Assembly (NCBI GenBank): GCA_963777315.1
Contig: CAVZQC010000002.1
Span: forward strand, 192,001 to 256,000
Length of the DNA: 64,000 nucleotides
Direction: 5' to 3'
Source: Vulcanimicrobiota bacterium
GTDB taxonomy: Bacteria; Vulcanimicrobiota; Vulcanimicrobiia; Vulcanimicrobiales; Vulcanimicrobiaceae
A program made the position numbers and the translations under genes. Under the pieces are notes generated by a model. The model worked only from the letters and a program-made list of their open reading frames with translations, was not told the DNA's origin and ran no database searches. Positions 39,119 through 55,500 of the stretch are shown piece after piece (position 1 is the first letter of the stretch; each line of letters begins with the position of its first letter).

Positions 39119-40069
39119 CTACCGTGCGAGAACCGGCTCCCCGCTGCGTCCAAGCGCGTATCCGACGAGGCGCTCGACCAGTGCATCGTACGATATGCCG
39201 ACCGCACCGCAGGCATCCGGCAGCAGGCTGGTGGGCGTCAACCCCGGGAGCGCGTTGATCTCCAGCACGTAAGGACGCCCCTCGTTGCTCACGATGAAGT
39301 CGGTGCGCGAGTAATCGCGCAACCCGAGCAAGCGATGCGTGGAAAGCGCGAGCATTTGAAGCCGCGCGGCCAGATCCTCGCCGATCTTGGCGGGAACGAT
39401 GTGCGTGCTTCCGCCCGGTGCGTACTTGGCTTCGTACGTGTAAAACTCGTCGCGGTTGGCGACGATCTCGATGAGCGGGAGCGCTTCCTCGCCCAAAACG
39501 CCGCAGTGCAGCTCGCGTCCGGGAATGAACTCCTCGGCGACGATTTCGGTGTACTCTTCGGCCGCCTGGATCATTGCCTGCGTCCATTGTTCGTGCGTCC
39601 TGACGATCGAAACGCCCTTGCTGCTGCCTTCGTAACGCGGTTTGACGACCAGCGGCAGGTCGAGCGAACCGGGCAACAGCGGAAGCGTACCGCCCGTGAG
39701 ATCGAAGAGATCCCACGCCGCCGTCGGCAGGCCTTCGGCGGCGCAAAGTTTCTTGGTCAAATGCTTGTCCATCGCGAGCGCCGCGGATTCGATGCCGCTG
39801 CCCGTATACGGAATGCGCAGGTACTCCAGGATGCCTTGAATCTGGCCGTCCTCGCCGCCCGGACCGTGCAGCGCGTTGAACACGACGTCGGGCCGCATTT
39901 CCCGCAGCGCGTCGATAAAGCGGTGATCGTAGTCGATGGGCTGCGCATCGTATCCGAGATCGTGCAATGCGCGCATGACGCCCGAGCCGGTCTGAATCGA
40001 AACTTCCCGCTCGGCGCTGCTGCCGCCCATCGCGACGGCGACTTTGGCTTTCTGCTTACTCTTGGTCAT
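39119..40069 (-). CDS. ddl: D-alanine--D-alanine ligase
   Basis: GGSSAEREVS, ALHGPGGEDG, PYTGSG, MDK, FYTYEAKY, EINALPG. Confidence 0.97.
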   Translation of the reverse strand: MTKSKQKAKVAVAMGGSSAEREVSIQTGSGVMRALHDLGYDAQPIDYDHRFIDALREMRPDVVFNALHGPGGEDGQIQGILEYLRIPYTGSGIESAALAMDKHLTKKLCAAEGLPTAAWDLFDLTGGTLPLLPGSLDLPLVVKPRYEGSSKGVSIVRTHEQWTQAMIQAAEEYTEIVAEEFIPGRELHCGVLGEEALPLIEIVANRDEFYTYEAKYAPGGSTHIVPAKIGEDLAARLQMLALSTHRLLGLRDYSRTDFIVSNEGRPYVLEINALPGLTPTSLLPDACGAVGISYDALVERLVGYALGRSGEPVLAR

Positions 40070-41012
40070 CTACGAATACGCCGACCAGATGAACCTCCAT
40101 GGCAAGGTCTATGCCGAAACGATCGGCGACGGCGCGGTGCACGCGTGCGAGCAGCGTTGCGACGTCTTTTGCGCTCGCGCCGGCGACGTTGTTGATGAAA
40201 TTGGCGTGCAGCGGCGAAACTTCCGCGCCGCCTTCGCGCCATCCCTTGGCCCCGGCAGCTTCGATCAGACGCGCCGCCTTATCCCCCGGCGGATTGCGGA
40301 AACAGGAACCGGCATTGGGCAGCGCGATCGGCTGCGTATCCTTGCGGCGCACCAGGCGCCGCTGCAGCTCTGCGCGCACCTCTTTCGGATCCGCGCGCTC
40401 GAACCGCAACGTTACCCGCGAAACGACGGCGTCGCGAGAAAGCGACGTGTGGCGATAGTAGTACTGCACGGTCACCGGATGCGGATCGGGTTTCGCGGGC
40501 GATTGCACCCACACTTCGCGCACGAATTCGCCGATCTCTTTGTCGGTGCCCGCGTTCATTCGCAGCGAACCGCCCACGCTGCCCGGAATACCGGCCAGCG
40601 AAGCGATCCCAAGCGCGCCGGCGGAAGCGGCTTTTGCGGTGAGCAGCGCCATCGAGGCCGAAGCCCCCGCGCCGACGACTACCGCGCCGTTTTCAACAGC
40701 CGCCGCGATCTTTGCGAACTCCCCGGACAAACGCAGCACCAAACCGCGAATGCCGCCGTCTCCGACCAGCAAATTGCTTCCGCTTCCAAGCACCATCCAC
40801 GGCGTTTTACGCCGGGCGCAGAATCGCATCAGCGCGCCGAGCTGCAATTCGCTTTCGACGACGACCCATGCATCGGCGGCGCCCCCGATCTTCCACGACG
40901 TGTATGGCGCAAGCGGTTCGTCGAAACGAACGCCTCCAGGACAGATGCCTTCCAGCTCGCGGCGATCGCCGTCGGTCAAGGCGCTCGCGGCGCCGGCAAC
41001 CGCGCAGCTCAT
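40056..41012 (-). CDS. murB: UDP-N-acetylenolpyruvoylglucosamine reductase
   Basis: TSWKIGGAA, GSGSNLL, GIPGSVGG..MNAG, NAGSCFRNP, HANFINN. Confidence 0.96.
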   Translation of the reverse strand: MSCAVAGAASALTDGDRRELEGICPGGVRFDEPLAPYTSWKIGGAADAWVVVESELQLGALMRFCARRKTPWMVLGSGSNLLVGDGGIRGLVLRLSGEFAKIAAAVENGAVVVGAGASASMALLTAKAASAGALGIASLAGIPGSVGGSLRMNAGTDKEIGEFVREVWVQSPAKPDPHPVTVQYYYRHTSLSRDAVVSRVTLRFERADPKEVRAELQRRLVRRKDTQPIALPNAGSCFRNPPGDKAARLIEAAGAKGWREGGAEVSPLHANFINNVAGASAKDVATLLARVHRAVADRFGIDLAMEVHLVGVFVDDQE

Positions 41013-42379
41013 ACCGGAGCGCTCTCACGCACGTCGCGCGCGAGATTGGCGGCCACGCACGTTATATCTCCGGCGCCCAGCATCAGGACGAGCGCGTTGG
41101 CGGGCGCCCGGCGCGGAAGAACCGCGCGCAGATCCTCGACGCGCGAAACGTACTCCACGCGCGTTCCCATTCGCTCGAGCGGTTCACCGATGCTGCGTTC
41201 GCTCACGCTTTCGATCGGCGCTTCGCTCGCGGCGTAGATTGGCGCCAGATACACGCAATCGGCCGCGCTCAACGCGCGCGCGAACCCCTGCGCGAGATAC
41301 GCCGTACGCGTATAGCGGTGGGGCTGAAACCCGACGACGATCGGACCCTTGTGATATTGCTTGGCGGCAACGATCGTGGCTCTGATCGCGGTAGGATGGT
41401 GCGCATAGTCGTCCACGACGATCATGCGCGGGGTCTTTGCCAGAATTTCGAATCTGCGGCGCACCCCGCGAAACCGCTCGAGTGCCTGGGCGACTGTCGA
41501 AAACGGTACGCCGAGCGTGCGCGCCACGCAAATTGCCGCGAGCGCGTTTTCGATGTTGATCGCTCCGGGCACGTTCAGATGCGCGGTTCCCGCGCGCTGC
41601 CCTTCAACCATGACGTCGAACGACGATCCCAGATCGGCAAAGCGAATGTCTTCGGCGCGCACGCCGGCGTCGCACGCGATGCCGAACGTGACGGTGGGCG
41701 CGCGGCGCTTCGACCCCGCAATCGATCCGCTCTGCGGGTTGTCGACTCCAACGATGGCCGCGCCGTCCTCGGGCAGCTTGGCCAAAAATCGATCGAACGA
41801 GCTCACGAGCTTCGGCAGCTCGGTATCAGACGACAAATGATCGTTCTCGATATTCGTGACCACGCCGATCGCCGGATCGAGCAGCGCGAAGGATCCGTCC
41901 GACTCGTCCGCCTCGCTCAAAAACCACGGCGCGCTGCCGTCACTGGCGTTCGTGCCGGTTGCCACGTCGATGCCGCCCAGCACCAAACCGGCGTCGATGC
42001 CCGCGCCCCGCAAAATCGTAGCGGTCATGGCGGTAGTCGTGGTCTTGCCGTGCGTACCGCACACCGCGATGCCGCGCCGTCCTTCCATGACGCGCCGCAG
42101 CATCTCTCCGCGCGCCACGATTGGAATGCCACGCTGCGCCGCTCGGATGCATTCCGGGTTGTGCGGATCGATTGCCGAGCTGACCACGACTGCGGCCGCG
42201 CCGTTGACGTTGCTTTCGTCGTGCCCGATTGCAATGGTCATGCCCAGCGCGCGCAGCTCCTCGACGAGCGCGGACTCGCTCACGTCCGAGCCGGTGATTC
42301 GCTCTCCGCGGGCCAGCAGCACGCGCGCGATCGCGCTCATGCCGATTCCTCCGATGCCCACGAAGTGAAAGGATCTCAT
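41009..42379 (-). CDS. murC: UDP-N-acetylmuramate--L-alanine ligase
   Basis: HFVGIGGIGMS, GTHGKTTTT, EADESDGSF, DDYAHHPT, FQPHRYTRT. Confidence 0.98.
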   Translation of the reverse strand: MRSFHFVGIGGIGMSAIARVLLARGERITGSDVSESALVEELRALGMTIAIGHDESNVNGAAAVVVSSAIDPHNPECIRAAQRGIPIVARGEMLRRVMEGRRGIAVCGTHGKTTTTAMTATILRGAGIDAGLVLGGIDVATGTNASDGSAPWFLSEADESDGSFALLDPAIGVVTNIENDHLSSDTELPKLVSSFDRFLAKLPEDGAAIVGVDNPQSGSIAGSKRRAPTVTFGIACDAGVRAEDIRFADLGSSFDVMVEGQRAGTAHLNVPGAINIENALAAICVARTLGVPFSTVAQALERFRGVRRRFEILAKTPRMIVVDDYAHHPTAIRATIVAAKQYHKGPIVVGFQPHRYTRTAYLAQGFARALSAADCVYLAPIYAASEAPIESVSERSIGEPLERMGTRVEYVSRVEDLRAVLPRRAPANALVLMLGAGDITCVAANLARDVRESAPV

Positions 42380-43491
42380 GTTTTGACGGCCTTTCGCGAC
42401 ACGAGCGCGTCTATCCGCGCGACGATTGTCGCGACGGGATCGCCCGGTGCAAGCGAGCGGGCAGCGCTGCTCATCGCGCTCAGGCGCTCGGGCTGCATGA
42501 TTGCCCGCAGCGACCACCACAGCGCATCGCCGTCGAGGTCGCGATCTTCGATGACCGCGCACGCTCCGGCGGTCTCGAACGCTCGCGCGTTGTGCGCCTG
42601 ATGATCGTCTGAAGCGAACGGATAGGGCACCAGAATCGAGGGGACGCCCAATGCGGCCAGCTCTCCTAGAGTCGAGGCTCCGGAACGCGCGATCGCCACG
42701 TCGGCAAGCGCGTACGCGTCGGCCATGTCGTGCACGTACGGCACCAACGTCACGCGGTTGCCGCCGAACGGCTCGCGCTCTTGCGCACGCACTTGCGCGT
42801 AATTGCGTTCGCCGCTCACGTGCAGGATCTGCCAGTCCGACGGGAGAGCGCGCCGCGACACCAAGGCTGAAACCGCAGCATTGATCGAACGCGCGCCTTG
42901 GCTGCCGCCCATCGCCAGGATCGTGCGGCGGCTAGGGTCCAGGCCTAAGCGCAGCGCCGCTTGCGTTCGTTCGGCCGGACGAAACAGCGATGAGCGCACC
43001 GGAATTCCCGTTTTGACGAACTTGCTCGCAAAGCGGGAATCGGGCGCGTCGAAAGCGCCCCACACTTCGTCGACGAGCGGCGCCAAAAGGCGGTTGGTCA
43101 AACCGGGACGCGCGTTGGGTTCGAGCAGCGCGAGAGCCGGACGCTTCGCGCGACCCCGCAGCAGCTTGGCAGCAGCCATGACCGGAAAACACACGTATCC
43201 GCCGGTTGCCACGACGGCGTCGGCAGAAAATCCACGCAGCAAGCGCATCGCCTGCGCGATGCCCAAGGCATTGGCGCCTATCGTTTGCAGCGCCGCGGGC
43301 GACAAGGTGCGCCGCAGCGAACGCGCCGAGATCGTTTCGAGCTCGTATCCGGCCGCCGGCACGATCGCCGTTTCCAAGCGATCCACCGTGCCGACAAAGC
43401 GGATCCGCGCACGCGGGGCGAGCGCGTCCGCCAGCGCGATTGCCGGATAGAGATGTCCCCCCGTCCCTCCTGCGGCAAAGAGCACGTTCAT
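42376..43491 (-). CDS. murG: Undecaprenyldiphospho-muramoylpentapeptide GlcNAc transferase
   Basis: GGTGGHLYP, GGSQGA, RSGASTLGE, HQAHNA. Confidence 0.97.
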   Translation of the reverse strand: MNVLFAAGGTGGHLYPAIALADALAPRARIRFVGTVDRLETAIVPAAGYELETISARSLRRTLSPAALQTIGANALGIAQAMRLLRGFSADAVVATGGYVCFPVMAAAKLLRGRAKRPALALLEPNARPGLTNRLLAPLVDEVWGAFDAPDSRFASKFVKTGIPVRSSLFRPAERTQAALRLGLDPSRRTILAMGGSQGARSINAAVSALVSRRALPSDWQILHVSGERNYAQVRAQEREPFGGNRVTLVPYVHDMADAYALADVAIARSGASTLGELAALGVPSILVPYPFASDDHQAHNARAFETAGACAVIEDRDLDGDALWWSLRAIMQPERLSAMSSAARSLAPGDPVATIVARIDALVSRKAVKT

Positions 43492-43525
43492 GCAATCTAG
43501 CGTCCTGAGTCGGAAGTTGAGGACA

Positions 43526-44692
43526 CTAGGACAAATCGATGCGGCGGTGGCGGCCGACATTCATGATCAGCGCGACGGCGATGAGCGAAACGATCAGCGA
43601 GCTGCCTCCGAAGGAAATGAACGGCAGCGGCACGCCCGTTACGGGCCACGACGACGACACCACGCCGATATTGACGAACGCCTGAATGACGATCGTCGCC
43701 GCGCAGCCGATCGCGAGAAAGAATCCGAACCGGTCGGGCGACGCGACGGCAATGCGAACCGCGCGATAGGCAAACGCAACGAACAGCACGATCACGGTCA
43801 GCGTGCCCAGCAAACCGAGCTCTTCGCCCAGCACCGAGAAGATGAAGTCGGTGTACTGTTCGGGCAGATAAAAAAACTTCGCGCGCGATTCTCCCAGGCC
43901 GACGCCCAAAAGGCCGCCGCTTCCCAGCGCGAGCAGCGACTGCACGATGTGGAAGCCCGTGTTTTGCGGGTCTTTCCAGGGATCGACGAACGCAAAGATG
44001 CGCGCGCGCTTATACGGGCTGGCCAAAACGGTCAGCACGGCGGGCGGCACGGTGACCATCGCGATCAGAAGCAGATGCTCGATGCGGGCGCCTGCGGCGA
44101 ACAGCAGCACGAACGCGGTAAAGACCACCAAGGTCGCGGTCCCCATGTCCGGTTCCACCAGCACCAGCAGCGCCACGAACAGCACCAGCATGCACAGCGG
44201 AAACAACCCTCGCCCCAGCGACGTGATGCGATCGCCTCGCACCGACAGCACGGCGGACAGGTACACCACCAAGGCCAGTTTGGCGAACTCCGAAGGCTGC
44301 AGCGAAAGCATGCCGGCGCCGATCCAGCGCCGAGCGCCGTTCACCGCCACTCCGACGTGCGGGATCAGCACCGCCACCAATGCAAGGATGCATGCCAGCA
44401 GCGCATACGGTGCAACGGCTTTGAGCTTGCGGTAATCGATGCGATAGGCCATGTAAGCGAGCACCAAGCCGACGACCAAAAAAATCGTTTGATGCTTGAC
44501 GTAATAGGCGGTATCGCGATGGTCCGCATAAGCTTGCGCGCTCGATGCGCTAAAGATCATCACCAGGCCAATCGCGACCAAGATCGCCACCGCGGCAAAA
44601 AGTATGGTGTCCGGCGGCGCTGAAACGAAAGCGCGCGCTGCCTGAGCACGCGCGGGCTTGGGTTTTGACGCGAGCTGTGCGGCGGCTTTCAT
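43526..44692 (-). CDS. ftsW: Peptidoglycan polymerase FtsW (SEDS)
   Basis: GARRWI, QPSEFAK, EPDMGT, LPEQYTDFIFSVLGEELG, PLPFISFGGSS. Confidence 0.96.
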   Translation of the reverse strand: MKAAAQLASKPKPARAQAARAFVSAPPDTILFAAVAILVAIGLVMIFSASSAQAYADHRDTAYYVKHQTIFLVVGLVLAYMAYRIDYRKLKAVAPYALLACILALVAVLIPHVGVAVNGARRWIGAGMLSLQPSEFAKLALVVYLSAVLSVRGDRITSLGRGLFPLCMLVLFVALLVLVEPDMGTATLVVFTAFVLLFAAGARIEHLLLIAMVTVPPAVLTVLASPYKRARIFAFVDPWKDPQNTGFHIVQSLLALGSGGLLGVGLGESRAKFFYLPEQYTDFIFSVLGEELGLLGTLTVIVLFVAFAYRAVRIAVASPDRFGFFLAIGCAATIVIQAFVNIGVVSSSWPVTGVPLPFISFGGSSLIVSLIAVALIMNVGRHRRIDLS

Positions 44693-46141
44693 CTACGCCG
44701 TCGTCCTGACCTTATCGGAAGGAGGCGCCCCCAGCGCGTTTACCGCCGCCGCGAATTTTGTGCCGCGGTCCTCGGCCGATTCGAACATGTCGAACGAGGC
44801 GCACGCCGGCGAAAGCAGCACGATCGATCCGGGCTTGGCCAGACACGCGGCGCGCCGCACTGCATCCTCCATCGAACCGGCGCGCTCGATCGGCGTGCGG
44901 TACACGTGCGCGGCCAAATCGTCCGCGGCTTGGCCGATTGTCACCAGCGCCTGCGCGCGCTGATCGATCGCGCGGCCCAGCTCGGTAAAATCGGTATTCT
45001 TGGCTTTGCCGCCCGCAATGAGCACGACGGGTTGCGCGTAAGCCGCCAGAGCGGCGATTGCGGAGCCGGGATTGGTGGACTTGGAATCGTCGACGTACAG
45101 TACGCCGTCCACCGTTCGCACCGGCTGCAGGCGGTGCGCCATGGCGGTAAAGCTCGCGACGGCCGCGCGAAGGCCGCGGTGATCGATGCCGGCGCCCAAG
45201 CTCGCGAGCATTGCAGCCATCACGTTGTGCACGTTGTGCCGACCGGCCAGCGGAATATCGCCGGTGCGCAGCAACTCCACGGGCCGCGGATCCCCCGTGA
45301 GCGGCGCGTACACGATCGTGTCGCCCTGCAGATACATCGATGCGTGCTCGTGCCTGGGACCCAGCGTATACCACAGTTGGCGCGCGTGAACGCGCGTTTC
45401 TCCGGTATGCCAGTGCAGCTCGCGCAGTCGCGGGTCATCGAAATTGCCCACGAACACGTCGGATTCGCTTTGATTGGCGAAAATCCGGTATTTGGCTTCG
45501 GCATACTCGTCCATCGAGTAATACCGGTCGAGATGATCCGGCGAGATGTTGAGAATGACTGCGACGCGAGGCCGGAACGCTCGAATCGCTTCCAGTTGAA
45601 AGGACGACACTTCGGCGACGACCCAATCTTGCGGCCGGGCTTGAATCGCTTCGCGAATGAGCGGGTTGCCGATGTTGCCTCCGACGTGCACCGTGCACGC
45701 ATCGCCCGGTGCGCCGCACTGCCGCAGCAGATGCCCGATCAGCGCCGTCGTCGTGGATTTGCCTTTGGTTCCGGTAACGGCGACAATCGGCGCTCGGCAT
45801 AAACGATAGGCGACCTCGATTTCGCTGTACACCGGAACGTTCGCATCCTGCACGCGGCGCACGAAGCCGCCGTTGAGCGGAACGCCCGGAGAAAGCACGG
45901 CTATCGTTATGCCCGGCAGCACGCTCTCGAGCTGGTCGGGCTCGACGAACGTCGCGCCGAACTCTTGCGCGCGCGCGAGCGCCTGCGCGAGCTGCTCGCG
46001 CGGTTTTTCGTCCACGGCGTACACGCGCGCGCCGCGCGCGCGCAGAATCTCCACGGTCGCCTGGCCGCTGCGGCCCAGCCCGATGACAAGCACCGTTTCG
46101 CCGGCCGAAAAAGAATGGTTTGCGCTGCCGTGCAGATTCAT
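44693..46141 (-). CDS. murD: UDP-N-acetylmuramoyl-L-alanine--D-glutamate ligase
   Basis: GLGRSG, SPGVP, TGTKGKSTT, EVSSFQL, DDSKSTN, LSPACASFDMF. Confidence 0.97.
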   Translation of the reverse strand: MNLHGSANHSFSAGETVLVIGLGRSGQATVEILRARGARVYAVDEKPREQLAQALARAQEFGATFVEPDQLESVLPGITIAVLSPGVPLNGGFVRRVQDANVPVYSEIEVAYRLCRAPIVAVTGTKGKSTTTALIGHLLRQCGAPGDACTVHVGGNIGNPLIREAIQARPQDWVVAEVSSFQLEAIRAFRPRVAVILNISPDHLDRYYSMDEYAEAKYRIFANQSESDVFVGNFDDPRLRELHWHTGETRVHARQLWYTLGPRHEHASMYLQGDTIVYAPLTGDPRPVELLRTGDIPLAGRHNVHNVMAAMLASLGAGIDHRGLRAAVASFTAMAHRLQPVRTVDGVLYVDDSKSTNPGSAIAALAAYAQPVVLIAGGKAKNTDFTELGRAIDQRAQALVTIGQAADDLAAHVYRTPIERAGSMEDAVRRAACLAKPGSIVLLSPACASFDMFESAEDRGTKFAAAVNALGAPPSDKVRTTA

Positions 46142-47106
46142 CGCACTATCGCCAGCCCCACGCCCGAGAGCACGGCGGACGCGAGCCAAAACCGTGCCGT
46201 TACTTTGGTTTCCGGCCAGCCGCCCAATTCGAAATGGTGATGCAGCGGGCTCATACGCAGCACGCGCTTGCCGTGCGTGCTCTTGAAGTAGGCAACTTGC
46301 ACGATCACCGACAACGCCTCGGCAACGAACACGCCGCCGATCAGGATGAGCAGCAGCATTTCACCGCTCAAAATTGCAAGCCCGGACAGCAGTGCGCCCA
46401 GCGCCAGCGACCCCGTGTCGCCCATGAACATCCGCGCCGGATACCGGTTGTAACTCAGAAAGCCGAAGCATCCGCCGATGCCCAAGACCGCAACGACCGG
46501 CCAAGTCGTCGCCGCAATTGCGCCCATGTCGAGCGCGACGATCAGCAAGACGATCAGCGGCGGAATCACCGTTCCCGTCACCAGACCGTCCAAGCCGTCC
46601 GTGAGGTTGACCGCGTGAACGCAGCCGGTAACGGCGAAAATTCCCAGCAGCAGCCAGAGCCAGTGGGGGACCGTAAGCGCGTACGCACCGGCGTGAAAGA
46701 TCGTATCGCGCGGGAAGATCGATGCCGAAGCCGTGATGAGGCGCAGAAAGATCACCGCCGCAAGCGCAGTCAGCAGGTATTTGGTGCTGGCGCGCAGCCC
46801 GGTGTTTCTTCCACGTTTGATCCCCAAGGCATCGTCGGCAAAGCCGATCGCCGCGCACGCGAAGACGAGCGCGAGCAGCCAGAGCGTGAGCGCGTCGAAA
46901 CGGGCAAACGCGGGCAGCAGCGCGGCCAGAATCGCAAGTCCACCCATTGTGGGCGTGCCGGTTTTTTGCCGGTGCGTCTGCGGCGCATCCTCGTAGGCGG
47001 TCTGCCGAACCTGCAGCCGCGGCAGCGTTGCAAGCAGCAGCGCACCGGTCGCAACGGCGATGAAGAATCCGATGAACAGCGTGACGATAACGGATACGGG
47101 CGTCAT
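46138..47106 (-). CDS. mraY: Phospho-N-acetylmuramoyl-pentapeptide transferase
   Basis: KTGTPTMGG, GFADD, VNLTDGLDGL, FMGDTGS, PLHHHFE. Confidence 0.97.
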   Translation of the reverse strand: MTPVSVIVTLFIGFFIAVATGALLLATLPRLQVRQTAYEDAPQTHRQKTGTPTMGGLAILAALLPAFARFDALTLWLLALVFACAAIGFADDALGIKRGRNTGLRASTKYLLTALAAVIFLRLITASASIFPRDTIFHAGAYALTVPHWLWLLLGIFAVTGCVHAVNLTDGLDGLVTGTVIPPLIVLLIVALDMGAIAATTWPVVAVLGIGGCFGFLSYNRYPARMFMGDTGSLALGALLSGLAILSGEMLLLILIGGVFVAEALSVIVQVAYFKSTHGKRVLRMSPLHHHFELGGWPETKVTARFWLASAVLSGVGLAIVR

Positions 47107-47807
47107 GCAGCGCCTTGCTCGAACAGCGGGTTCGACGCGTCGGCCCGCCATTTGAGCACGACGATGGGCGTCTGTTCGTCGCCGTTGCCGTGCGGGTTGG
47201 AAAGCAGCGCGCACTCGACGGCGCGGCGATTCACGCCGCGGGAGGCGCCCAGCACTTTGGCTTTTTCCAAATCGTTTGCATCGACCACGCACGCCGCGAT
47301 CCCTGTACGATCGCAGAGGACCTGCGCAAACGCGCCGGGATCTTGCGGCGCGAAAACGATCGTGCGCTCAAATGGCGGCAAGGTGCCGGTATAACCATCG
47401 ATTGCGGCGATCGATTCCCCCATGATCTCGTAAAAAACGCCGCGTTTGCCCAGCGCCCGCCCGGCGACGTGCGCGATCGACGCATACAGCACTTTGGCGG
47501 CGCCCGCACGATCGATCACGATCTGCAGCGACTCGGGTTGGTTGACGGTAGCCAGCGCGCCGGCGCGGCGCGAAAGAAAATACGCCATCGGCGAAGGGCG
47601 CACGTATTCGGCCGGCACCGATTGGCCCTGCGCTATCGCAACGGCCGTTTCCGAAATCGCCAGCACGTCGCCGGAGCGCGCAATACCTGCAGTCGCGCGC
47701 GCAACCAGCTCGACGAGATCGTCGCCGGGCTGCACGAGCCGCGTACGAACCGGAAGCGCGACGATGCCGGGCGGCACTTCGGTGCGCTCGACGCGCAAAC
47801 TTCTCAT
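47103..47807 (-). CDS. Coenzyme F420-0:L-glutamate ligase (CofE)-like protein
   Basis: PVRTRLVQPGDDL, GDVLAISETAVAIAQG, AAIDG, VVDANDL, NPHGNGDEQTPIVV resemble the F420_ligase-like family; ATGA overlaps with murF and mraY. Confidence 0.8.
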   Translation of the reverse strand: MRSLRVERTEVPPGIVALPVRTRLVQPGDDLVELVARATAGIARSGDVLAISETAVAIAQGQSVPAEYVRPSPMAYFLSRRAGALATVNQPESLQIVIDRAGAAKVLYASIAHVAGRALGKRGVFYEIMGESIAAIDGYTGTLPPFERTIVFAPQDPGAFAQVLCDRTGIAACVVDANDLEKAKVLGASRGVNRRAVECALLSNPHGNGDEQTPIVVLKWRADASNPLFEQGAA

Positions 47808-49180
47808 GCGATCTCACTGGTCTCACGCAGCGCTGAAACGATCTCCTCCATCTTGTACTTGCGCGACCCTTTGAGCAGCACCACATCCGCAGCACGGGCA
47901 TGCCGGCGCAGCCAGCTCGCCGCTTCGGCGTTGCGGGCGTACGTGACGATGCGGTCCTGCGGCAAACCTGCGCAAACCGCTCCCCGCGCGAACGATCCGG
48001 CATACTCGCCGCCCGCGAGCAGAATGTCCACGCCGGTCCGCGCGGCGTGCGCCCCGACTCGCTCGTGCATCGCGGGCGCATCGGTTCCCAGTTCCGCCAT
48101 GCTCGCCAAGACCGCGATGCGCCGCTCGGCGGCTTCGCCGGCAAAAGCGTCCAGCGCCGCGATCATGCCGGTCGCGTTTGCATTGTATGCATCGAAGATC
48201 AGCTGCATGCCTCCGGCCACGGCAACGCGCTCGTAACGCCCAGGGGGCAGCGTGAGAGCCGGCACGGCGCCGATCAAATCTTCGGGTTCGATACCCAACG
48301 CGAGCGCTGCAGCCAGAGCGGCGGCCAGATTCGCCCGATTGTACGATCCGGGGACGCGCACGTCGATCGCAAACTCGCGCGGGGTGCGCCCATAGGTGAG
48401 CATCAGCGTACCCGAGCCACTCAGGAGGACCCCGTGTTCGACCGCTTCGCCGGTGCCGAACCACAGCGGCGGAGCGGAAAGCGACGCCGCGCGCGCGACC
48501 GATTCCGGATCGCCGGCATTGAGAACGGCCTGCGCGCCCTGGGAAAACAATCCCCATTTCGTGCGCGCCAAGCGTTCACGCGATCGGAAGATCTCCAGGT
48601 GCGCTTCGCCGATGTTCGTGAGCACGCCGATATGCGGGCGCGCGATCCGCACGAGCGCGGCAATCTCGCCGTCGTGGCGGGCACCCATTTCGACGACGAG
48701 CACGCGCTGATCCGGTCCCGCGTTCAGCAGCAGCTTGCTCACGCCGATCTCGTTGTTCTCGTTTGCCGGCGAGGCGAGCACGCTATCCACCCCGTACTGC
48801 ACCGCCAGAAGCTGCGCTAAAAAGTGCTTGGTCGTCGTTTTGCCCGTGCTGCCCGTGATCCCGACGACCGAACCTTCGTACGCGTCGCGTGCGGCGGCCG
48901 CCAGCTCCATGTAGGCGCGTTTCGTGTCGGCGACCAGCAGAGCCGGAACGCCTTCCAGCGCGGCGCGCGCGTCGTCGATGACGATGGCTGCCGCGCCTTT
49001 GTCCACGGCGTCGCGCACGTAGTCGTGTCCGTCGAAGCGCTCGCCGCGCAGGGCCAAAAACGTATCGCCTGCTGCAATCTCGCGCGTGTCGGTGGTAACG
49101 TGCAATTGCGAGGGGAACCGGTGCGCGCTCAGCAGTCGGCCCGCCGTCGCGCGGACGGCCGTCTCAAGCGCGAGGCTCAT
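47804..49180 (-). CDS. murF: UDP-MurNAc-tripeptide--D-Ala-D-Ala ligase
   Basis: TDTR, GERFDGHDY, TGSTGKTTTK, NNEIG, EMG, DAYNAN, KGSR. Confidence 0.97.
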   Translation of the reverse strand: MSLALETAVRATAGRLLSAHRFPSQLHVTTDTREIAAGDTFLALRGERFDGHDYVRDAVDKGAAAIVIDDARAALEGVPALLVADTKRAYMELAAAARDAYEGSVVGITGSTGKTTTKHFLAQLLAVQYGVDSVLASPANENNEIGVSKLLLNAGPDQRVLVVEMGARHDGEIAALVRIARPHIGVLTNIGEAHLEIFRSRERLARTKWGLFSQGAQAVLNAGDPESVARAASLSAPPLWFGTGEAVEHGVLLSGSGTLMLTYGRTPREFAIDVRVPGSYNRANLAAALAAALALGIEPEDLIGAVPALTLPPGRYERVAVAGGMQLIFDAYNANATGMIAALDAFAGEAAERRIAVLASMAELGTDAPAMHERVGAHAARTGVDILLAGGEYAGSFARGAVCAGLPQDRIVTYARNAEAASWLRRHARAADVVLLKGSRKYKMEEIVSALRETSEIA

Positions 49181-50643
49181 CGACGGGCCGCCTGCCGTTG
49201 CGCGAGCGCTTGGCGCGCTTGCGCCAGATCGTCGAACGGCAGAACCTCGCCGCTCACGATTTGATAGTTTTCGTGACCCTTGCCCGCGATCAGCACGACG
49301 TCGCCCTCCCGGGCCGCGTCGATCGCCGCTTCGATTGCCTCGCGGCGATCGACGCGCACCGCGTGCGGCGCGTTACCTATTCCGGGAAGAATCTGATCGA
49401 TGATGCTCTGCGGATCTTCGCCGCGAGGATTGTCCGACGTCACGTAACTGAAGTCCGCATAGCGCGCCGCAGCGGAACCCATCTGCGGGCGTTTGCCCGA
49501 ATCACGATCTCCGCCGCAGCCGAATACGGCAATCAGCCGGCGCGCCGCCGTTTCGCGAAGCGTGCGCAGCGCGTTTTCGAGCGCATCGGGCGTGTGCGCG
49601 TAATCGACGACCACGTCGATGCCGTCTGCACGCACGTGTTCCATTCTTCCGGGGATGCGCTCCAGGTCCGCAAGTCCTTCAGCGGCGAGTTCGTCGCTCA
49701 CCCCGAGCGTTTTTGCCGCGCCGATCGCGCACAGCGCATTGGCGACGTTGAACCTGCCGGGGATCCGAACTTCGAAGCGGCGTCCTTGCAAGTAAAAGAT
49801 GCTTGCGTCCGGCCGCAGGTCGATGCTTTCCGGCCGCAGGTCGGCCTGCGCTCGCAGCGCGTACGTCGTGACTGGCTTGTGCGCGCGCAACTGCAGCGCC
49901 CATCGGTTGCCCAACTCGTCGTCGGCGTTGAACACGCAGCACTGCGCGAGATCGAACAGTTTACGCTTTGCCGACGCATACGATTCAAAACGCTTGTGGA
50001 AATCCAAATGGTCGCGCGTCACGTTCGTGAGCGCGCCCACGCGTATGCGCACGTCGGAAACCCGCTGCAGCGCAAGCGCGTGCGAGCTCACCTCCATTGC
50101 CGCGGCCCGGGCGCCGGAATCACGCATTTGCGCGAGCAGATCCTGCAGCTGCGGGGCAGGCGGCGTCGTATTCTCGAGCGGCCAGGTTTGCCGGTCGAAG
50201 GCGGCGCCGATCGTGCCGATGAGTCCGCACGGCATGCCCGCCGCGTTCAGGATTGCCGCAATCATGTGCGTTGCCGTCGTTTTGCCGTTCGTTCCCGTAA
50301 CGCCGGCAACGGCGATGTCGTCGGAGGGCCTGCCGTAGAACGCGGCGGCGAGTTGCGAAAGCGCGCGCGCGGAATCGCGCACGACGATCGACGTTACCGC
50401 CGGCGGCACTTCGCACGGCTCTTCGGTCACCACCGCAGTTGCACCGCGCTCGACGGCCTGCGCGACGAACCGGTGGCCGTCGGTCTGCAGGCCGCGCAAT
50501 GCGACGAACATGCTTCCTCGTCCGGCCCGGCGCGAATCCGCGACGACGGCGTGAACCATGCTGCTCGCCGGACCATCCACGCTCAGAACGTCGTCGAGCG
50601 CCTGCAGCAGCAACTCCAATGCGACGCTTCGCCGGCCTTCCAT
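49177..50643 (-). CDS. murE: UDP-MurNAc-dipeptide--meso-DAP ligase
   Basis: TGTNGKTT, MEVSSH, DHLDFH, DYAHTPD, GCGGDRD, DNPR (DAP-type), AGKGHE. Confidence 0.97.
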   Translation of the reverse strand: MEGRRSVALELLLQALDDVLSVDGPASSMVHAVVADSRRAGRGSMFVALRGLQTDGHRFVAQAVERGATAVVTEEPCEVPPAVTSIVVRDSARALSQLAAAFYGRPSDDIAVAGVTGTNGKTTATHMIAAILNAAGMPCGLIGTIGAAFDRQTWPLENTTPPAPQLQDLLAQMRDSGARAAAMEVSSHALALQRVSDVRIRVGALTNVTRDHLDFHKRFESYASAKRKLFDLAQCCVFNADDELGNRWALQLRAHKPVTTYALRAQADLRPESIDLRPDASIFYLQGRRFEVRIPGRFNVANALCAIGAAKTLGVSDELAAEGLADLERIPGRMEHVRADGIDVVVDYAHTPDALENALRTLRETAARRLIAVFGCGGDRDSGKRPQMGSAAARYADFSYVTSDNPRGEDPQSIIDQILPGIGNAPHAVRVDRREAIEAAIDAAREGDVVLIAGKGHENYQIVSGEVLPFDDLAQARQALAQRQAARR

Positions 50644-50647
50644 ATCG

Positions 50648-52414
50648 TCAACGAATATTCGCCGCGGGCACCGCTTTTGCCGCCCGGCCGGCTGCGACGG
50701 TGCTCGGCAACACGCCCGCGTGCAGCATTGCCGCTTTGGCGATTTGAACGAAAGCCGGCGCAGCGACTATCGACCCGTAAATGGCTCCCTGCGGCTGCTC
50801 GACTTTGACGTAGATGACGTAGCGCGGATGTTCGTACGGGACCATGCCGATGAAGGACGCTACGTACGACCCCGGATCGTATTGGCCGTTCACGACCATT
50901 TGCGCGGTCCCGGTCTTTCCGGCGGTCGCGTAGCCCGGAATCTGCGCGGACGGATTGCCGGTGCCGCGCACCACCACTGCGCGCAAAAAACTGCGCAGCA
51001 CGGCTGCGGTATGCCGCGAGAAGACGCGGCGCTCGATCTGCGGCGGATATGTATAGATTGGACGACCGCTTGCGTCGAGGATGGACCGAACGATCTGCGG
51101 GCGCATGACGAGTCCGCCATTGGCAATGGCGCAGTAGTAGCGAGCCATCTCGATCGGCGTTACCGAAACCCCTTGCCCGAACGCCATCGTGGCCAGCGAG
51201 CTTCCGCTCCACTCTGCCGGAGGCGGAACGATTCCGGGGCTTTCACCTGCCAGGCCGATTTGCGTAGCCTCCCCGAATCCGGCGCGCCGCTCCATGGCGT
51301 AGAACGTGCGGCCTCCGACGAACCGCCCGACGTTGGCGATGCCGACGTTGAGCGAATCGGCAATAATCGTTTCCAGCGTATCGCCGGCGGGATTGGGCGT
51401 CAGACCGTCGACCGCGTTGTAAATTCGCCGGCCTCCCACTTCGAGCGGGCCGACCGCATCGAAGCGCCGCGTAAGCGAAACTTTTCCGCTGTCGATTGCC
51501 GCCGCTGCCGTAACCAATTTGAACGTGGACCCCGGTTCGTACGCATCCTGAACCGCGCGGTCGCGATAATCGTCGGCGGGGAATTTCCAGTACGCGTTCG
51601 GATCGAAGTGCGGCGCATTGGCCATCGCCAGCACTTCGCCGGTCGAGGGGTCCATGACGATCGCCGTTCCGCTGCGCGCGTGATACGTCTTGACCTGCTT
51701 TTCGAGCGCGGCTTCGGTAACGAATTGCAAATAGGAATCCAGCGTGAGCTGCAGCGATAGTCCGGGCTTTGCCGGTTTGACGACGCGCTCGTGGCCGAAC
51801 GGAATGGGCATTCCGAATTCATCGGCTTCGATCGTGACGCGCCCAGACGATCCTTTCAGGAGATCGTCGAACGTATATTCCAGACCGCTCAGGCCGTTCT
51901 CGTCGATGCCGACGAAGCCCAAAATCGTCGAAGCGCTGCGGCCCGCGAGGTCGACGCGCCTGCCCGTGTCTTCCTCCATCAGCGCTATGCCGGGCAAATT
52001 CAGCGCCTGCACCTTGTCGGCTTGGTCGTGCGGAATCTTGCGCGCGATCCAAACGAACTGCAGATGGCGATCGTGCAGCAGGCTCGCCGTCGCCGTGTCG
52101 ATCTTGCCGACGATACGATCGAGCTGCGCAATAGCGCTATCGGGGTTGGTCAAGTCGTGCGGTACGGCATAGACGCTTTCGGACGGAAGCGAACGAACCA
52201 GCACGGTGCCGTAGCGGTCCAGGATGCTGCCGCGGCGAGCAAAAACTTCAATCGTATCGCTGCGCTGCGCGAGCGCCTCTTTTGCGTAGACCGGCCCTTT
52301 GACCAGCTGCACGTACGAAAGCCGCCACGACAGGAACGCGGCGATCGCGAACAGTCCGTAAAAGAAAGCTTTGGCGCGGCGGGGGCCGACGCGCGCGAAC
52401 GTGCGCTTGTGCAA
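50648..52414 (-). CDS. ftsI: Class B penicillin-binding protein (FtsI/PBP3-like)
   Basis: N-terminal TM, RGSILDR, EPGSTFK (SxxK), SLN (SxN), KTGTAQ; TTG start inferred. Confidence 0.92.
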   Translation of the reverse strand: MHKRTFARVGPRRAKAFFYGLFAIAAFLSWRLSYVQLVKGPVYAKEALAQRSDTIEVFARRGSILDRYGTVLVRSLPSESVYAVPHDLTNPDSAIAQLDRIVGKIDTATASLLHDRHLQFVWIARKIPHDQADKVQALNLPGIALMEEDTGRRVDLAGRSASTILGFVGIDENGLSGLEYTFDDLLKGSSGRVTIEADEFGMPIPFGHERVVKPAKPGLSLQLTLDSYLQFVTEAALEKQVKTYHARSGTAIVMDPSTGEVLAMANAPHFDPNAYWKFPADDYRDRAVQDAYEPGSTFKLVTAAAAIDSGKVSLTRRFDAVGPLEVGGRRIYNAVDGLTPNPAGDTLETIIADSLNVGIANVGRFVGGRTFYAMERRAGFGEATQIGLAGESPGIVPPPAEWSGSSLATMAFGQGVSVTPIEMARYYCAIANGGLVMRPQIVRSILDASGRPIYTYPPQIERRVFSRHTAAVLRSFLRAVVVRGTGNPSAQIPGYATAGKTGTAQMVVNGQYDPGSYVASFIGMVPYEHPRYVIYVKVEQPQGAIYGSIVAAPAFVQIAKAAMLHAGVLPSTVAAGRAAKAVPAANIR

Positions 52415-52419
52415 GGGCC

Positions 52420-52854
52420 TTACTTCGCGCCGAACAGAGTCGCGAGATTCGAGAGAAACGCCAAATGGGAGCGATCGGGCGCGCGCACCGTCGCCGGAAG
52501 CGTGACGACCGCAAACTGCTGCGGATCCTGCATGTGCAAGCGCGCCGCTACGGTCGCCAGACGATCGTCCGAGCGCAGCGCCGCGAGCCGGTTGTCCAGG
52601 ACCGCGCTTTCGGCGGCAAGCGTGGCGCGTTCGTGCTGCGCCTTTGCGACGGCATAATTCAAGCTGGTCAGGCGCGCCATCAGCATGACGTAGACCATGA
52701 CCAAACAAAGCGATATCGCGAGCACCGCGCAAAAGCGCGACAGGCCCGCGTATCGCGCGCGCTCTTTGCGCGTGATGCGGCGCAGCGTTGCGGATTTTGC
52801 CGTGCGCACGTTGGAGGGACGCGGCTTGGTACGTTCCTTGGGTTGGGCGATCAT
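52420..52854 (-). CDS. ftsL: Cell division protein FtsL-like
   Basis: Basic N-terminus, single TM, coiled coil (L..E...L...LA.L.S.DRL...A..L.M); position between rsmH and ftsI. Confidence 0.7.
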   Translation of the reverse strand: MIAQPKERTKPRPSNVRTAKSATLRRITRKERARYAGLSRFCAVLAISLCLVMVYVMLMARLTSLNYAVAKAQHERATLAAESAVLDNRLAALRSDDRLATVAARLHMQDPQQFAVVTLPATVRAPDRSHLAFLSNLATLFGAK

Positions 52855-53730
52855 TCAGCTTGCCTTACGCTGGGCGGCGCGCAGTTTCGCGCTGCGGGCC
52901 CGTGGATTGCTTGCGCTTTCGGCTTCGCCCGGCACGATCGGTTTGCGGGTGAGCACCTCCAAGCGTTCGTCGTCGCGAAACGCATGTTTGACGATTCTGT
53001 CTTCAAGCGAGTGAAAGCTGATTGCCACGATGCGTCCCGCCGTGCGCAAACGGCCGGCCGCCGTGTCGACGCTTTCGCGCAGCGCGTCCAATTCGTCGTT
53101 GACCGCTATGCGCAGCGCTTGAAAGACCCGGGTGGCGGGATGAATGCGTTCGCGCCGGCCGGGGCGATGCAAAAGCCCGCTGATCATTTGCGCGAATTCC
53201 ACGGTCGTATCCGGCAACGTCCCTTGGCTGCGGCGGTGCACGATCGCGCGCGCTATCTTTCTCGCGCCGCGTTCCTGTCCATACTGAAAGAAGATGTCGG
53301 CGAGTTCGCCTTCGCTCGCGTTCATCAGCACGTCGTAGGCGCTGCGTCCGCAGCTCGGGTTCATGCGCATGTCCAGCGGTGCGGATTGGCGGAACGAAAA
53401 GCCCCGCGAAGCGTCATCAAGTTGCATCGACGAAACTCCCAAGTCGTAAAGCACGCCGTCGACCGAATCGATGCCAAGCCGGTCCAGCGCCGCCGACAGC
53501 TGCCGGAAGTTGGAAGGCACGAAGGTGAATGCGGACTCGCAAACGGCGAGCGCCCGCGCCTGCGCCTGCGGATCGGCATCGAGCGCAATGAGCCGGCCGC
53601 CCCGTAAGCGCTCCAAGATTCCCCGGCTGTGGCCGCCCGCACCGAAGGTCGCATCGACGTAGACCCCATCCGGCCGGATCGCCAAGCAGCTCAAAGCCGC
53701 TTCGTACAGGACCGGGACATGCTGCTCCAT
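52855..53730 (-). CDS. rsmH: 16S rRNA m4C1402 methyltransferase
   Basis: HVPVL, DATFGAGGHS, DLGVSSMQLD, PLDMRM, SFHSLEDRIVK, NPRARSAKLR. Confidence 0.98.
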   Translation of the reverse strand: MEQHVPVLYEAALSCLAIRPDGVYVDATFGAGGHSRGILERLRGGRLIALDADPQAQARALAVCESAFTFVPSNFRQLSAALDRLGIDSVDGVLYDLGVSSMQLDDASRGFSFRQSAPLDMRMNPSCGRSAYDVLMNASEGELADIFFQYGQERGARKIARAIVHRRSQGTLPDTTVEFAQMISGLLHRPGRRERIHPATRVFQALRIAVNDELDALRESVDTAAGRLRTAGRIVAISFHSLEDRIVKHAFRDDERLEVLTRKPIVPGEAESASNPRARSAKLRAAQRKAS

Positions 53731-53745
53731 CCGTCCACCCCGGCA

Positions 53746-54189
53746 TCAGTAGAGTCCCAAATCCGCCATAAAGTCGGCCATCTCGCCCTCCGGCGCCGCG
53801 TGCTCGGCGTACCGTTCCTTGGCCCATACCTCGACGCGGCTTAAGGTGCCCACCGAAACCACGTCGCGTTCGATCCCGGCGTAGGTCCGCAGCGCGCCCG
53901 GCACGAGCAGGCGGCCTTGGGCGTCGCACGCCACGTCTTCGGTGCGCGCGAAGAGGTGACGCACGAACCGCCGGAACGCGACGTCCTTCACGGGCGCCGT
54001 TTCCAAGCGGGCGCAAAACTCGCCCCAGGTCGCCTGGGGGTAGAGCGCCAAGCACGGCTCGGGCGGCGCGATCGTTAAGATGAAGCCATTGCCGAGCCGC
54101 TCGCGGAACCGCGCAGGTACGATGAGGCGGCCCTTATCGTCAAGAGCATGCTCCACCGAACCGGAAAAGCGCGGTAGGTCCGCGTGCAA
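53746..54189 (-). CDS. mraZ: Transcriptional regulator MraZ
   Basis: LDDKGRLIVPARFR, DAQGRLLVP, RVEVW; first gene of the dcw cluster; GGAGG RBS. Confidence 0.96.
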   Translation of the reverse strand: MHADLPRFSGSVEHALDDKGRLIVPARFRERLGNGFILTIAPPEPCLALYPQATWGEFCARLETAPVKDVAFRRFVRHLFARTEDVACDAQGRLLVPGALRTYAGIERDVVSVGTLSRVEVWAKERYAEHAAPEGEMADFMADLGLY

Positions 54190-54325: not shown

Positions 54326-54425
54326 TGACGCGATTAGTGCGACCTAATCGCGTCAGTGTGTGGCGCGATTATTGGCAAGACGCGATCGTTCCGGTATAAT
54401 TGCGTCAAAATATGACGCGATTATA
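54326..54425 (+). promoter_or_regulatory. Fic gene promoter (TTGGCA-17-TATAAT) embedded in TGACGCGATTA motif repeats
   Basis: -35 at 54372-54377, -10 at 54395-54400; perfect 12-bp inverted repeat 54326-54355; second inverted pair 54395-54425. Confidence 0.7.
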
Positions 54426-55500
54426 CATATGGGAACAGGCAGACTGGCCGACTTTTTCGTATGACGCTGCCCGCTTGCTAACTGCCGTGGGAAACGCCCG
54501 AAGGGCGCAAGGGCGCCTCGCTGAGGCAATGGCGCGAGTCGGGTTCGCGGAGCGAGAAGAAGCCTTTCTTGAGACGCTCACAACAGACGCGGTTGAAACA
54601 AGCAAAATTGAGGGCGAGAACCTCGACTACGCCGCGGTACGCTCCTCGGTAGCGGCGCGTCTAGGAATGCCGCATGCCGCGATCGCCCCCACCGACGCAC
54701 GTACTGAAGGGATCGCCGTCATGGTGCTTGACGCAGTCGAGAATTACGATAAGCCGCTTACGGCGGAGCGGATTTTCAGTTGGCATGTCGAGCTGTTCCC
54801 CGGCAAACGCGAAGCCGTCATTGGCAATTGGCGCCCGGGCCCTGTCGGCGTTTACCGCTACGGCCGCGTGGACCAACCGCCAACTACCGAGTACATGGCC
54901 CCGCCTGCGGAGCGTGTCGCCACCGAAATGCAGCGCTTCTTTGATTGGTTCAACGCGCGAAGCGATACCGACGGCATCATGCGCAGTGCGCTTGCGCACC
55001 TATGGTTCGTAACGATCCATCCATTTGAGGACGGCAACGGTCGCATTGCGCGCGCTATAGCAGATATGGCATTGGCCCAAGACGAACACTCAGCTCGCCG
55101 CTTCTTCAGTATGTCTCGCCAAATCCGTGAGGAGCGCAAACACTACCACGCCATACTCAAAGAAACGCAGCACGGGCAGCTGGACGTTACGTCATGGCTT
55201 GAATGGTTCTTGCAGTGTTACGAAAGGGCGGTGCGGAGCGCTATGGACACGCTTGGGCGCGTGCTTGATGTGAATACATTTTGGGCCCGCCACGGTTCCG
55301 TAACGTTTACCGATCGCCAGCGTAAGGCGCTGACACATGTATTACACGGGTTCAAAGGCGCCATTACGACAAAGAATTGGCAACGCCTGGCGCAAACCTC
55401 ACGCGAAAGCGCCACACGCGACTTAAGCGATCTCGTGCAAAAAGGCGTGCTGCGCTCCGAAGGTGCTGGAAGGTCGACCCGTTATCAATTGCTTGAGTGA
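54412..55500 (+). CDS. Fic family protein (DUF4172 + Fic + C-terminal wHTH)
   Basis: YIWEQADWPTFSYD, TSKIEGE, canonical HPFEDGNGRIARA, SRESATRDLSDLV..GAGRSTRY. Confidence 0.93.
   Translation: MTRLYIWEQADWPTFSYDAARLLTAVGNARRAQGRLAEAMARVGFAEREEAFLETLTTDAVETSKIEGENLDYAAVRSSVAARLGMPHAAIAPTDARTEGIAVMVLDAVENYDKPLTAERIFSWHVELFPGKREAVIGNWRPGPVGVYRYGRVDQPPTTEYMAPPAERVATEMQRFFDWFNARSDTDGIMRSALAHLWFVTIHPFEDGNGRIARAIADMALAQDEHSARRFFSMSRQIREERKHYHAILKETQHGQLDVTSWLEWFLQCYERAVRSAMDTLGRVLDVNTFWARHGSVTFTDRQRKALTHVLHGFKGAITTKNWQRLAQTSRESATRDLSDLVQKGVLRSEGAGRSTRYQLLE

What the first reader, a model, noticed from the sequence alone, without database searches (positions are those of the whole stretch)
47103..47807. 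CofE-like amide ligase coupled between murF and mraY: candidate peptidoglycan-precursor modifying enzyme
Seen: a 234-aa F420:gamma-glutamyl-ligase-like gene sits inside the dcw cluster exactly between murF (last cytoplasmic step) and mraY (lipid I synthesis), with ATGA overlaps at both ends. No other F420 gene is in the window. Known: CofE uses NTP to join an amine to a carboxylate (the lactyl group of F420-0). Some diderms carry diamines on the stem D-Glu carboxyl (cadaverine/putrescine in Selenomonas/Veillonella, N-acetylputrescine in Cyanophora cyanelles), added at the lipid-intermediate stage; I do not know of a gene assigned to that activity. Inference: this protein may ligate a polyamine or amino acid onto UDP-MurNAc-pentapeptide or lipid I/II, giving a modified cell wall in this lineage.
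Basis: partly seen in the sequence, partly recalled or inferred. Interest (0 to 1): 0.85.

Follow-up and report, generated by a model that had tools for sequence, protein, structure and literature searches.

The report
Candidate cell-wall glutamate-capping enzyme

Summary
Confirmed: a 234-aa CofE-fold gene (X) overlaps murF and mraY by ATGA. It is not CofE: below cut-off, F420-binding parts missing, no cofC/D/G found in the genome. The scan noted this synteny twice on other DNA; the rest is new here. murF-X-mraY holds in 77 of 80 loci (3 truncated); X is fused to MurF in 3 of 4 sister-family genomes, and a distant subfamily also lies between mraY and ftsW. Homologues occur in 198/201 phylum genomes, 150/151 Negativicutes (murI in 50/80 loci; the class with polyamine on stem D-Glu), fuse to amidases and AsnB, and occur in algae, mosses, ferns and a conifer. 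In 121 cyanobacterial genomes X (40) and the D-Glu amidotransferase MurT (69) never co-occur, over about 4-5 switches (not significant after phylogeny). Against: in Bacillota X and MurT co-occur freely (12/40 vs 14/40). Best reading: an NTP-dependent ligase that caps the D-isoGlu alpha-carboxyl of the wall precursor, most likely with a diamine (0.45; ammonia 0.22). No biochemistry was done.

The parts
47103..47807 (-). Gene X, 234 aa, CofE-fold putative amide ligase
47804..47807 (-). ATGA overlap: murF stop / X start
47103..47106 (-). ATGA overlap: X stop / mraY start; X ends in ATGA, GTGA or TTGA in 65 of 80 relatives (overlap with the mraY start not checked one by one)
47397..47399 (-). D137, 97% conserved in 141 family domains; aligns to the invariant Asp of the CofE/FbiB VDxSN motif (metal ligand; role recalled)
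47271..47282 (-). D176-x-N178-D179 motif (97/94/92%); D176 aligns to the CofE/FbiB TDT/TDN Asp
47166..47198 (-). N204-P205-x-G207-N/Q-x-x-E-Q-T213-P214 loop, family signature
47442..47501 (-). Amphipathic helix 103-122 in an insert with no counterpart in FbiB; proposed membrane-contact element (inference)
47804..49180 (-). murF (naturally fused to X in 3 of 4 sister-family genomes examined)
46138..47106 (-). mraY
49177..50643 (-). murE, meso-DAP type (PRK00139.1-4, 528 bits, cut-off 373)
44693..46141 (-). murD
39119..44692 (-). ftsW, murG, murC, murB, ddl (ddl by HMM; the other four named from reading the translations, not scanned)
50648..54189 (-). mraZ, mraW, ftsL, ftsI (named from reading the translations; ftsL only a weak DivIC hit)

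Best explanation
X is a cytoplasmic, NTP- and metal-dependent amide ligase of the CofE fold that has been turned to the cell-wall precursor. It activates the free alpha-carboxyl of the stem D-isoglutamate as an acyl phosphate and joins it to a primary amine, most likely a diamine or polyamine (cadaverine, putrescine or a derivative). The substrate is the MurF product as it passes to MraY, or lipid I/II at the membrane. It would be the non-homologous counterpart of MurT/GatD, and its Negativicutes orthologue the best candidate for the unassigned enzyme that polyaminates peptidoglycan. Shown here: fold, conserved acidic residues, loss of F420 features, coupling and fusion to wall genes, distribution. 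Inferred: catalysis, the D-Glu site, the amine, the stage.
For: Synteny: murF-X-mraY in 77 of 80 loci, the other 3 cut by contig ends; MurF-X single ORFs in L208, L209, L211; a distant subfamily independently sits mraY-X-ftsW-murG-murC in L248 and L233 and after ftsI-murF in L285. Fusions among 123 of 150 representatives scanned: Amidase_3 6, AsnB-type 9, PgdA-type 1. Negativicutes: 150 of 151 genomes, murI in 50 of 80 loci, MurT in 0 of 39; this class carries polyamine on the D-Glu alpha-carboxyl (PMC10628300 passages). MurT amidates that same carboxyl (PMC6085368 passages). Cyanobacteria: X 40, MurT 69, both 0, neither 12 of 121. MurT in 0 of 76 Vulcanimicrobiota. Amine-supply neighbours: Orn/Lys/Arg decarboxylase directly downstream in 3 of 40 Bacillota loci, with a 4-nt overlap in L500; speD in 11 of 80 Negativicutes loci; bpsA once. 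Membrane access: a TM-anchored partner domain is adjacent in 79 of 80 Negativicutes loci and fused in cyanobacteria and other classes. Plant homologues are named only from algae, bryophytes, a lycophyte, ferns and a conifer. CofE works through an acyl phosphate on two metals, like MurD (PMC10861534 passages and part of section 3).
Against: No activity or wall chemistry was measured. In Bacillota MurT is as common with X (12 of 40) as without (14 of 40); in Actinomycetota 2 of 12 vs 33 of 68 (p 0.058); in G642 X lies directly after a MurT-like gene. The cyanobacterial exclusion rests on about 4-5 switches: independent pairs never go the opposite way but p is 0.125-0.25. In the other classes of the phylum, 0 of 16 loci lie in the dcw cluster, and only about 16 of 80 distant-subfamily loci have a wall gene nearby. 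X is in 111 of 301 Bacillota, far beyond the taxa with reported polyaminated walls. This genome has CsaB and no SLH hit, so a polyamine tether is not evidently needed; it lacks the TM partner. Its only decarboxylase found is an unassigned AAT-fold one. The invariant Lys of FbiB (SKxE motif) is Ile in X. Cyanophora and Veillonella were not seen by name in any listed hit.
Confidence: 0.45

Rival explanations
1. Same site, ammonia as the amine: X is a non-homologous replacement of MurT that makes D-isoglutamine, using free ammonium or ammonia from a glutaminase partner (the fused AsnB/GATase domain in some actinobacteria).
For: Complete X/MurT exclusion in 121 cyanobacteria; MurT absent from 76 Vulcanimicrobiota; 9 fusions to AsnB-type proteins; X is far more widespread than reported polyamination.
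Against: In Negativicutes, where X is near-universal and MurT was not found, that carboxyl carries polyamine, not ammonia; co-occurrence with MurT in Bacillota would be redundant; no AsnB homologue in this genome beyond a weak N-terminal hit.
Confidence: 0.22
2. A wall-precursor ligase at another position or with an amino acid: for example adding Gly, Glu or Asp to the D-Glu carboxyl or to the diamino acid as a bridge (then amidated by AsnB), or capping the meso-DAP carboxyl. Subfamilies may differ.
For: CofE's natural nucleophile is an amino acid; X coexists with and once adjoins MurT; AsnB and amidase fusions mark separate clades; the query differs from the family consensus at Q62, K105 and E127.
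Against: Does not explain the cyanobacterial exclusion with MurT; the stretch that carries CofE's swapped hairpin appears deleted (manual pairing).
Confidence: 0.17
3. Not a stem-peptide enzyme: X ligates some other envelope or cytoplasmic substrate (lipid, secondary wall polymer, protein), or is a non-catalytic partner of the Mur/MraY machinery; the dcw position is inherited gene order.
For: No dcw link in 16 of 16 other-class loci; most distant-subfamily loci lack wall neighbours; loss of the FbiB Lys; a Tetraselmis homologue whose wall status was not tested.
Against: Repeated, independent links to murF, mraY, murI, murB, dacA, mltG (41 of 80 cyanobacterial loci), amidases and AsnB; strict conservation of D137, D176, N178, D179; exclusion with MurT.
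Confidence: 0.13
4. True CofE making polyglutamylated F420.
For: Pfam PF01996 hit and automatic database names; CofE fold.
Against: TIGR01916 32.7 bits against a cut-off of 180.65; no CofC; the CofD-family hit is YvcK; the CofG-like hit is MqnC; cofD over cut-off in 0 of 34 same-class, 0 of 19 Negativicutes and 0 of 16 X-bearing cyanobacterial genomes, though in 2 of 9 other-class genomes and 2 of 2 positive controls.
Confidence: 0.03

Closest known systems
CofE / FbiB N-terminal domain (F420-0:gamma-glutamyl ligase; PF01996, TIGR01916; PDB 2PHN, 2G9I, 7ULD)
   Same: Fold (Z 15.4, TM about 0.6), two aligned Asp motifs, presumed acyl-phosphate chemistry.
   Different: 19-25% identity, far below the family cut-off; GRPWR motif replaced by NDL; about 25 residues shorter between the second Asp and the last strand; no C-terminal DxFR; Lys lost; helical insert gained; no F420 pathway; wall-gene context.
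MurT/GatD lipid II isoglutaminyl synthase
   Same: Proposed target (D-Glu C1 carboxyl of lipid I/II) and activation by phosphorylation (PMC6085368 passages); complementary distribution in cyanobacteria.
   Different: Unrelated fold (Mur ligase plus class I glutaminase); known product is D-isoGln; co-occurs with X in many Bacillota.
Lipid intermediate:diamine transferase activity of Selenomonas/Veillonella, and putrescine transfer in Cyanophora
   Same: Amide between the D-Glu alpha-carboxyl and a diamine; membrane-bound stage, lipid II preferred in Cyanophora (PMC3266927 passage); X is near-universal in Negativicutes with a TM partner.
   Different: No gene assignment found in the searches made; the name Ldt and the ATP dependence are recalled, not read; Cyanophora not tested; no polyamine wall is known for this window's lineage.
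PPASP (van Baren et al. 2016, PMC4815162)
   Same: Plant protein that tracks plastid peptidoglycan genes.
   Different: PPASP is a LysM plus transmembrane protein absent from bacteria; it is not this family.

Membership tests
CofE/FbiB F420 ligase | CofE fold | tested here: met
CofE/FbiB F420 ligase | Score over the TIGR01916 / PRK13293 cut-off | tested here: not met
   32.7 vs 180.65 and 29.4 vs 274 bits
CofE/FbiB F420 ligase | Two metal-site Asp motifs | tested here: met
   D137 and D176 align to the invariant FbiB Asp residues; their metal role is recalled
CofE/FbiB F420 ligase | F420-contacting segments (G153-C155 stretch, swapped hairpin, partner R234; PMC10861534) | tested here: not met
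   GRPWR replaced by NDL; hairpin region and C-terminal motif missing by comparison (manual pairing beyond residue 187)
CofE/FbiB F420 ligase | Host makes F420-0 (cofC, cofD, cofG/H) | tested here: not met
   assembly 89.9% complete, but 0 of 34 same-class genomes have cofD
CofE/FbiB F420 ligase | GTP-dependent glutamylation of F420-0; homodimer | not testable with these tools
   needs an assay; no complex prediction was run
MurT/GatD | Mur-ligase middle domain plus MurT_C, with a GatD partner | tested here: not met
   X hits only PF01996; PF08353 not found in G000; GatD itself was not searched
MurT/GatD | Acts on the D-Glu alpha-carboxyl of lipid I/II (works like) | tested here: inconclusive
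   exclusion in cyanobacteria but not in Bacillota
Peptidoglycan diamine transferase (activity without a gene) | Present throughout Negativicutes | tested here: met
   150 of 151 genomes, including a Selenomonas ruminantium MAG (L191) and Anaerovibrio lipolyticus (L155)
Peptidoglycan diamine transferase (activity without a gene) | Membrane-associated | tested here: inconclusive
   TM partner adjacent or fused elsewhere but not found in G000; X itself has no TM segment
Peptidoglycan diamine transferase (activity without a gene) | Present in Cyanophora paradoxa | tested here: inconclusive
   not among the best 120 of 2805 hits listed; no glaucophyte database was searched
Peptidoglycan diamine transferase (activity without a gene) | NTP-dependent transfer of diamine to lipid intermediates | not testable with these tools
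   needs biochemistry

The most novel reading that the evidence does not exclude
X defines an ancient Terrabacteria-wide family of CofE-fold peptidoglycan-modifying ligases, the missing polyamine-to-D-Glu transferase that outer-membrane tethering in Negativicutes depends on. It is swapped with MurT/GatD across cyanobacteria and was carried into plastids, so that mosses, ferns and conifers would cap their chloroplast peptidoglycan with an amine, and amine-capped walls would be far more common than reported.
Probability: 0.4. Interest if true: 0.92.

Novelty: new variant of a known kind. Interest (0 to 1): 0.8.

Why it matters
Polyamine on the stem D-Glu is what OmpM binds in Negativicutes, yet no gene for it turned up in the searches made. 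A named candidate makes this testable at once in Veillonella, and the same family gives a candidate for the predicted but unidentified modification of moss chloroplast peptidoglycan (PMC9434261 passages). It would also correct thousands of 'F420 ligase' annotations in organisms without F420, add a second chemistry beside MurT/GatD at one site, and bear on how diderm envelopes and plastid walls evolved.

Tried and rejected
F420 role: rejected. PPASP identity: rejected. General X/MurT exclusion: not upheld in Bacillota. Carbamoyltransferase neighbours read at first as ornithine/putrescine clues are aspartate carbamoyltransferase (L526, L535) and were dropped. The class III aminotransferase next to X in 5 actinobacterial loci could not be assigned. 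MraY-domain fusions among representatives (3) may be frameshift artefacts and were not counted as evidence; the MurF fusion was counted only after it was seen in 3 genomes. The first recA tree had 8 rows translated in the wrong frame and was redone. The partner domain folds as an Ig-like beta-sandwich behind a TM helix with no specific match (TM at most 0.37); ESM Atlas gave only unnamed or F420-ligase clusters. No plasmid match. Literature: 0 papers for peptidoglycan+F420-0+ligase+polyamine and for F420+gamma-glutamyl ligase+peptidoglycan+cyanobacteria; 'CofE' absent from the 30 listed of 162; 'polyamination' absent from the 25 listed of 143; nothing relevant. The library holds only open-licence papers, and supplements were not read, so a published assignment may have been missed. 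No complex prediction and no read mapping were run.

Full report
Observation. The ORF is real and placed as described: 47103-47807, minus strand, 234 aa, with ATGA overlaps to the murF stop and the mraY start. murF, mraY, murE (meso-DAP type), murD and ddl pass curated cut-offs. Named close hits are Vulcanimicrobiota (Eremiobacterota). Differences from 7 relatives concentrate on third codon positions.

Fold and active site. X hits PF01996 over residues 20-101 but scores 32.7 bits on the CofE equivalog, cut-off 180.65. A confident model (pLDDT 93, 94 sequences) matches only Archaeoglobus CofE. Against five FbiB domains fetched here, profile alignment (92.8%, 126 columns) pairs D137 with the VDxSN Asp and D176 with the TDT Asp; both are 97% conserved in 141 family domains, with N178, D179 and an NPxG(N/Q)xxEQTP loop. 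The invariant FbiB Lys is Ile, the GRPWR stretch is NDL, and by manual comparison about 25 residues and the C-terminal DxFR are missing. These are the regions that hold F420 in CofE (PMC10861534, passages and part 2 of section 3). X gains a helical insert with an amphipathic helix. That the two Asp residues bind metal is recalled.

Not F420. In this assembly (89.9% complete) X is the only PF01996 hit; CofC was not found; the CofD-family gene lies after rapZ and is YvcK; the CofG-like hit is MqnC. cofD passes its cut-off in 0 of 34 same-class, 0 of 19 Negativicutes and 0 of 16 X-bearing cyanobacterial genomes, in 2 of 9 genomes of other classes, and in both positive controls.

Context in the phylum. 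X is found in 198 of 201 genomes (the tally includes two unpublished genomes, G128 and G178; without them 196 of 199). Of the 80 best loci kept from 123, 77 read murF-X-mraY and 3 are cut by a contig end. In a sister family MurF and X form one ORF in 3 of 4 loci. In the other classes X is fused to an N-terminal partner domain and lies outside the dcw cluster in 16 of 16 loci, which counts against a universal dcw link.

Context elsewhere. Among 123 of the 150 listed representatives, X is fused to Amidase_3 (6), AsnB-type domains (9), TPR repeats (12), a PgdA-type deacetylase (1) and MurF (1); these fall in separate clades. In Negativicutes X occurs in 150 of 151 genomes; in the best 80 of 404 loci the partner gene is present in 79, murI in 50 and speD in 11. 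murI-rph-rdgB is a general Firmicute cluster (recalled), so that adjacency is partly inherited. The partner is a TM helix plus an Ig-like sandwich and was not found in this genome. In a distant subfamily (best 80 of 586 loci; Patescibacteria, Clostridia and others) X sits mraY-X-ftsW-murG-murC in L248 and L233, after ftsI-murF in L285, before murB in L277, before dacA in L281 and near mraZ in three; about 16 of 80 have a wall gene nearby and the rest do not. In 40 Bacillota loci an amidase is fused or directly upstream in 9 and an Orn/Lys/Arg decarboxylase directly downstream in 3. In cyanobacteria X heads a run that includes mltG in 41 of 80 loci. This resembles the range of plastid peptidoglycan (abstract starts of PMC9434261 and PMC12681378), but some angiosperms keep most Mur genes (PMC7432710 passage) and I did not profile Mur genes.

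Which carboxyl. MurT/GatD amidates the D-Glu C1 carboxyl of lipid I/II (PMC6085368 passages); Negativicutes carry polyamine on that carboxyl (PMC10628300 passages; bioRxiv 2021.05.31.446380 passages; PMC12826042 passages). If X acts there it should replace MurT. In 121 cyanobacterial-phylum genomes 40 have X only, 69 MurT only, 12 neither, none both. On a recA tree of 80 of them (all 40 X, 32 of 69 MurT, 8 of 12 neither) X needs 6 changes and MurT 5 (4 each on strong branches); independent pairs never go the opposite way, but 4 pairs cannot reach significance. MurT was found in 0 of 39 Negativicutes and 0 of 76 Vulcanimicrobiota. The test fails in Bacillota, where X is in 111 of 301 and MurT is in 12 of the first 40 non-Negativicute X-positive and 14 of the first 40 X-negative genomes. 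In Actinomycetota X is in 15 of 251 (includes unpublished G598 and G648, left out afterwards) and MurT is in 2 of 12 X-positive and 33 of 68 X-negative genomes. Subfamilies may therefore differ in site or amine, or two enzymes may share one site.

Mechanism proposed. NTP and two metals on the conserved Asp residues phosphorylate the D-isoGlu alpha-carboxyl; a primary amine displaces phosphate. Coupling or fusion to MurF beside MraY (here) or a TM partner (elsewhere) brings the enzyme to the precursor. In Cyanophora the putrescine step is membrane-bound and prefers lipid II (PMC3266927 passage). I put 0.45 on a diamine, 0.22 on ammonia, 0.17 on another position or an amino acid, 0.13 on a non-stem role, 0.03 on F420. 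For this genome specifically, CsaB is present, no SLH domain was found, and the only decarboxylase found is an unassigned AAT-fold enzyme before tmk, so the amine here is the least certain step.

Novelty. Two earlier notes of this scan reported the same murF-X-mraY arrangement and loss of F420 features on other genomes; a word search for the MurT, murI and Negativicutes links found no note. No paper linking this family to peptidoglycan was found; PMC13721041 (first 300,000 characters), PMC12632261 and PMC6704402 were searched for terms and name no such enzyme. Kojima 2010 was not held; the Kamio and Pfanzagl papers were seen only as citations. Supplements were not read and could list this gene among essential or plastid genes. 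Verdict: a real, strongly conserved, mis-annotated enzyme family with a testable claim to a long-unassigned cell-wall reaction.

Noticed in passing
window 38122-39030 (-): A 302-aa ORF with a hydrophobic N-terminus and no Pfam or NCBIfam hit follows ddl directly, where ftsQ-ftsA-ftsZ often stand; a citrate synthase-like gene comes next.
   Followed up: partly
L081:5142-7349 (G000:C4): rapZ and yvcK read as one 735-aa ORF with an apparent frame change near the end of rapZ; a sequencing indel or a real fusion. The YvcK part has an N-terminal membrane extension.
   Followed up: no
G000 whole assembly: No PF02784 hit, so no LysA-type DAP decarboxylase was found although MurE is DAP-type; 13 of 14 control genomes ring. 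May be incompleteness.
   Followed up: no
L545:3866-6552 (G000:C1): murI lies directly behind a 632-aa Amidase_3 gene in this genome.
   Followed up: partly
L130:6456-7004 and orthologues: Unnamed 180-aa partner family: TM helix plus Ig-like sandwich with conserved N60, R98, D100, Y102 (RxDGYW motif), no Pfam; separate gene in Negativicutes, fused to X in cyanobacteria, plants and other classes.
   Followed up: partly
L510:4323-7528 (G642): A 741-aa MurT-like ORF, then X, then carbamate kinase: X and MurT in one run.
   Followed up: partly
L375, L378-L380, L382: In five small actinobacterial genomes X is followed by a conserved class III aminotransferase of unclear specificity.
   Followed up: partly
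L047, L050, L057, L065, L073, L076, L233, L248, L285: Record titles name Verrucomicrobiia, Acidiferrales, Binatia, Rhodospirillales or Gammaproteobacteria, but the sequences group with Vulcanimicrobiota or Patescibacteria-like hits (G355 is 0.9 Mb); the labels look doubtful.
   Followed up: no
window 54400-58352: A Fic-like ORF, a GNAT-like ORF and a heavy-metal P-type ATPase-like ORF lie upstream of mraZ (named from reading the translations).
   Followed up: no
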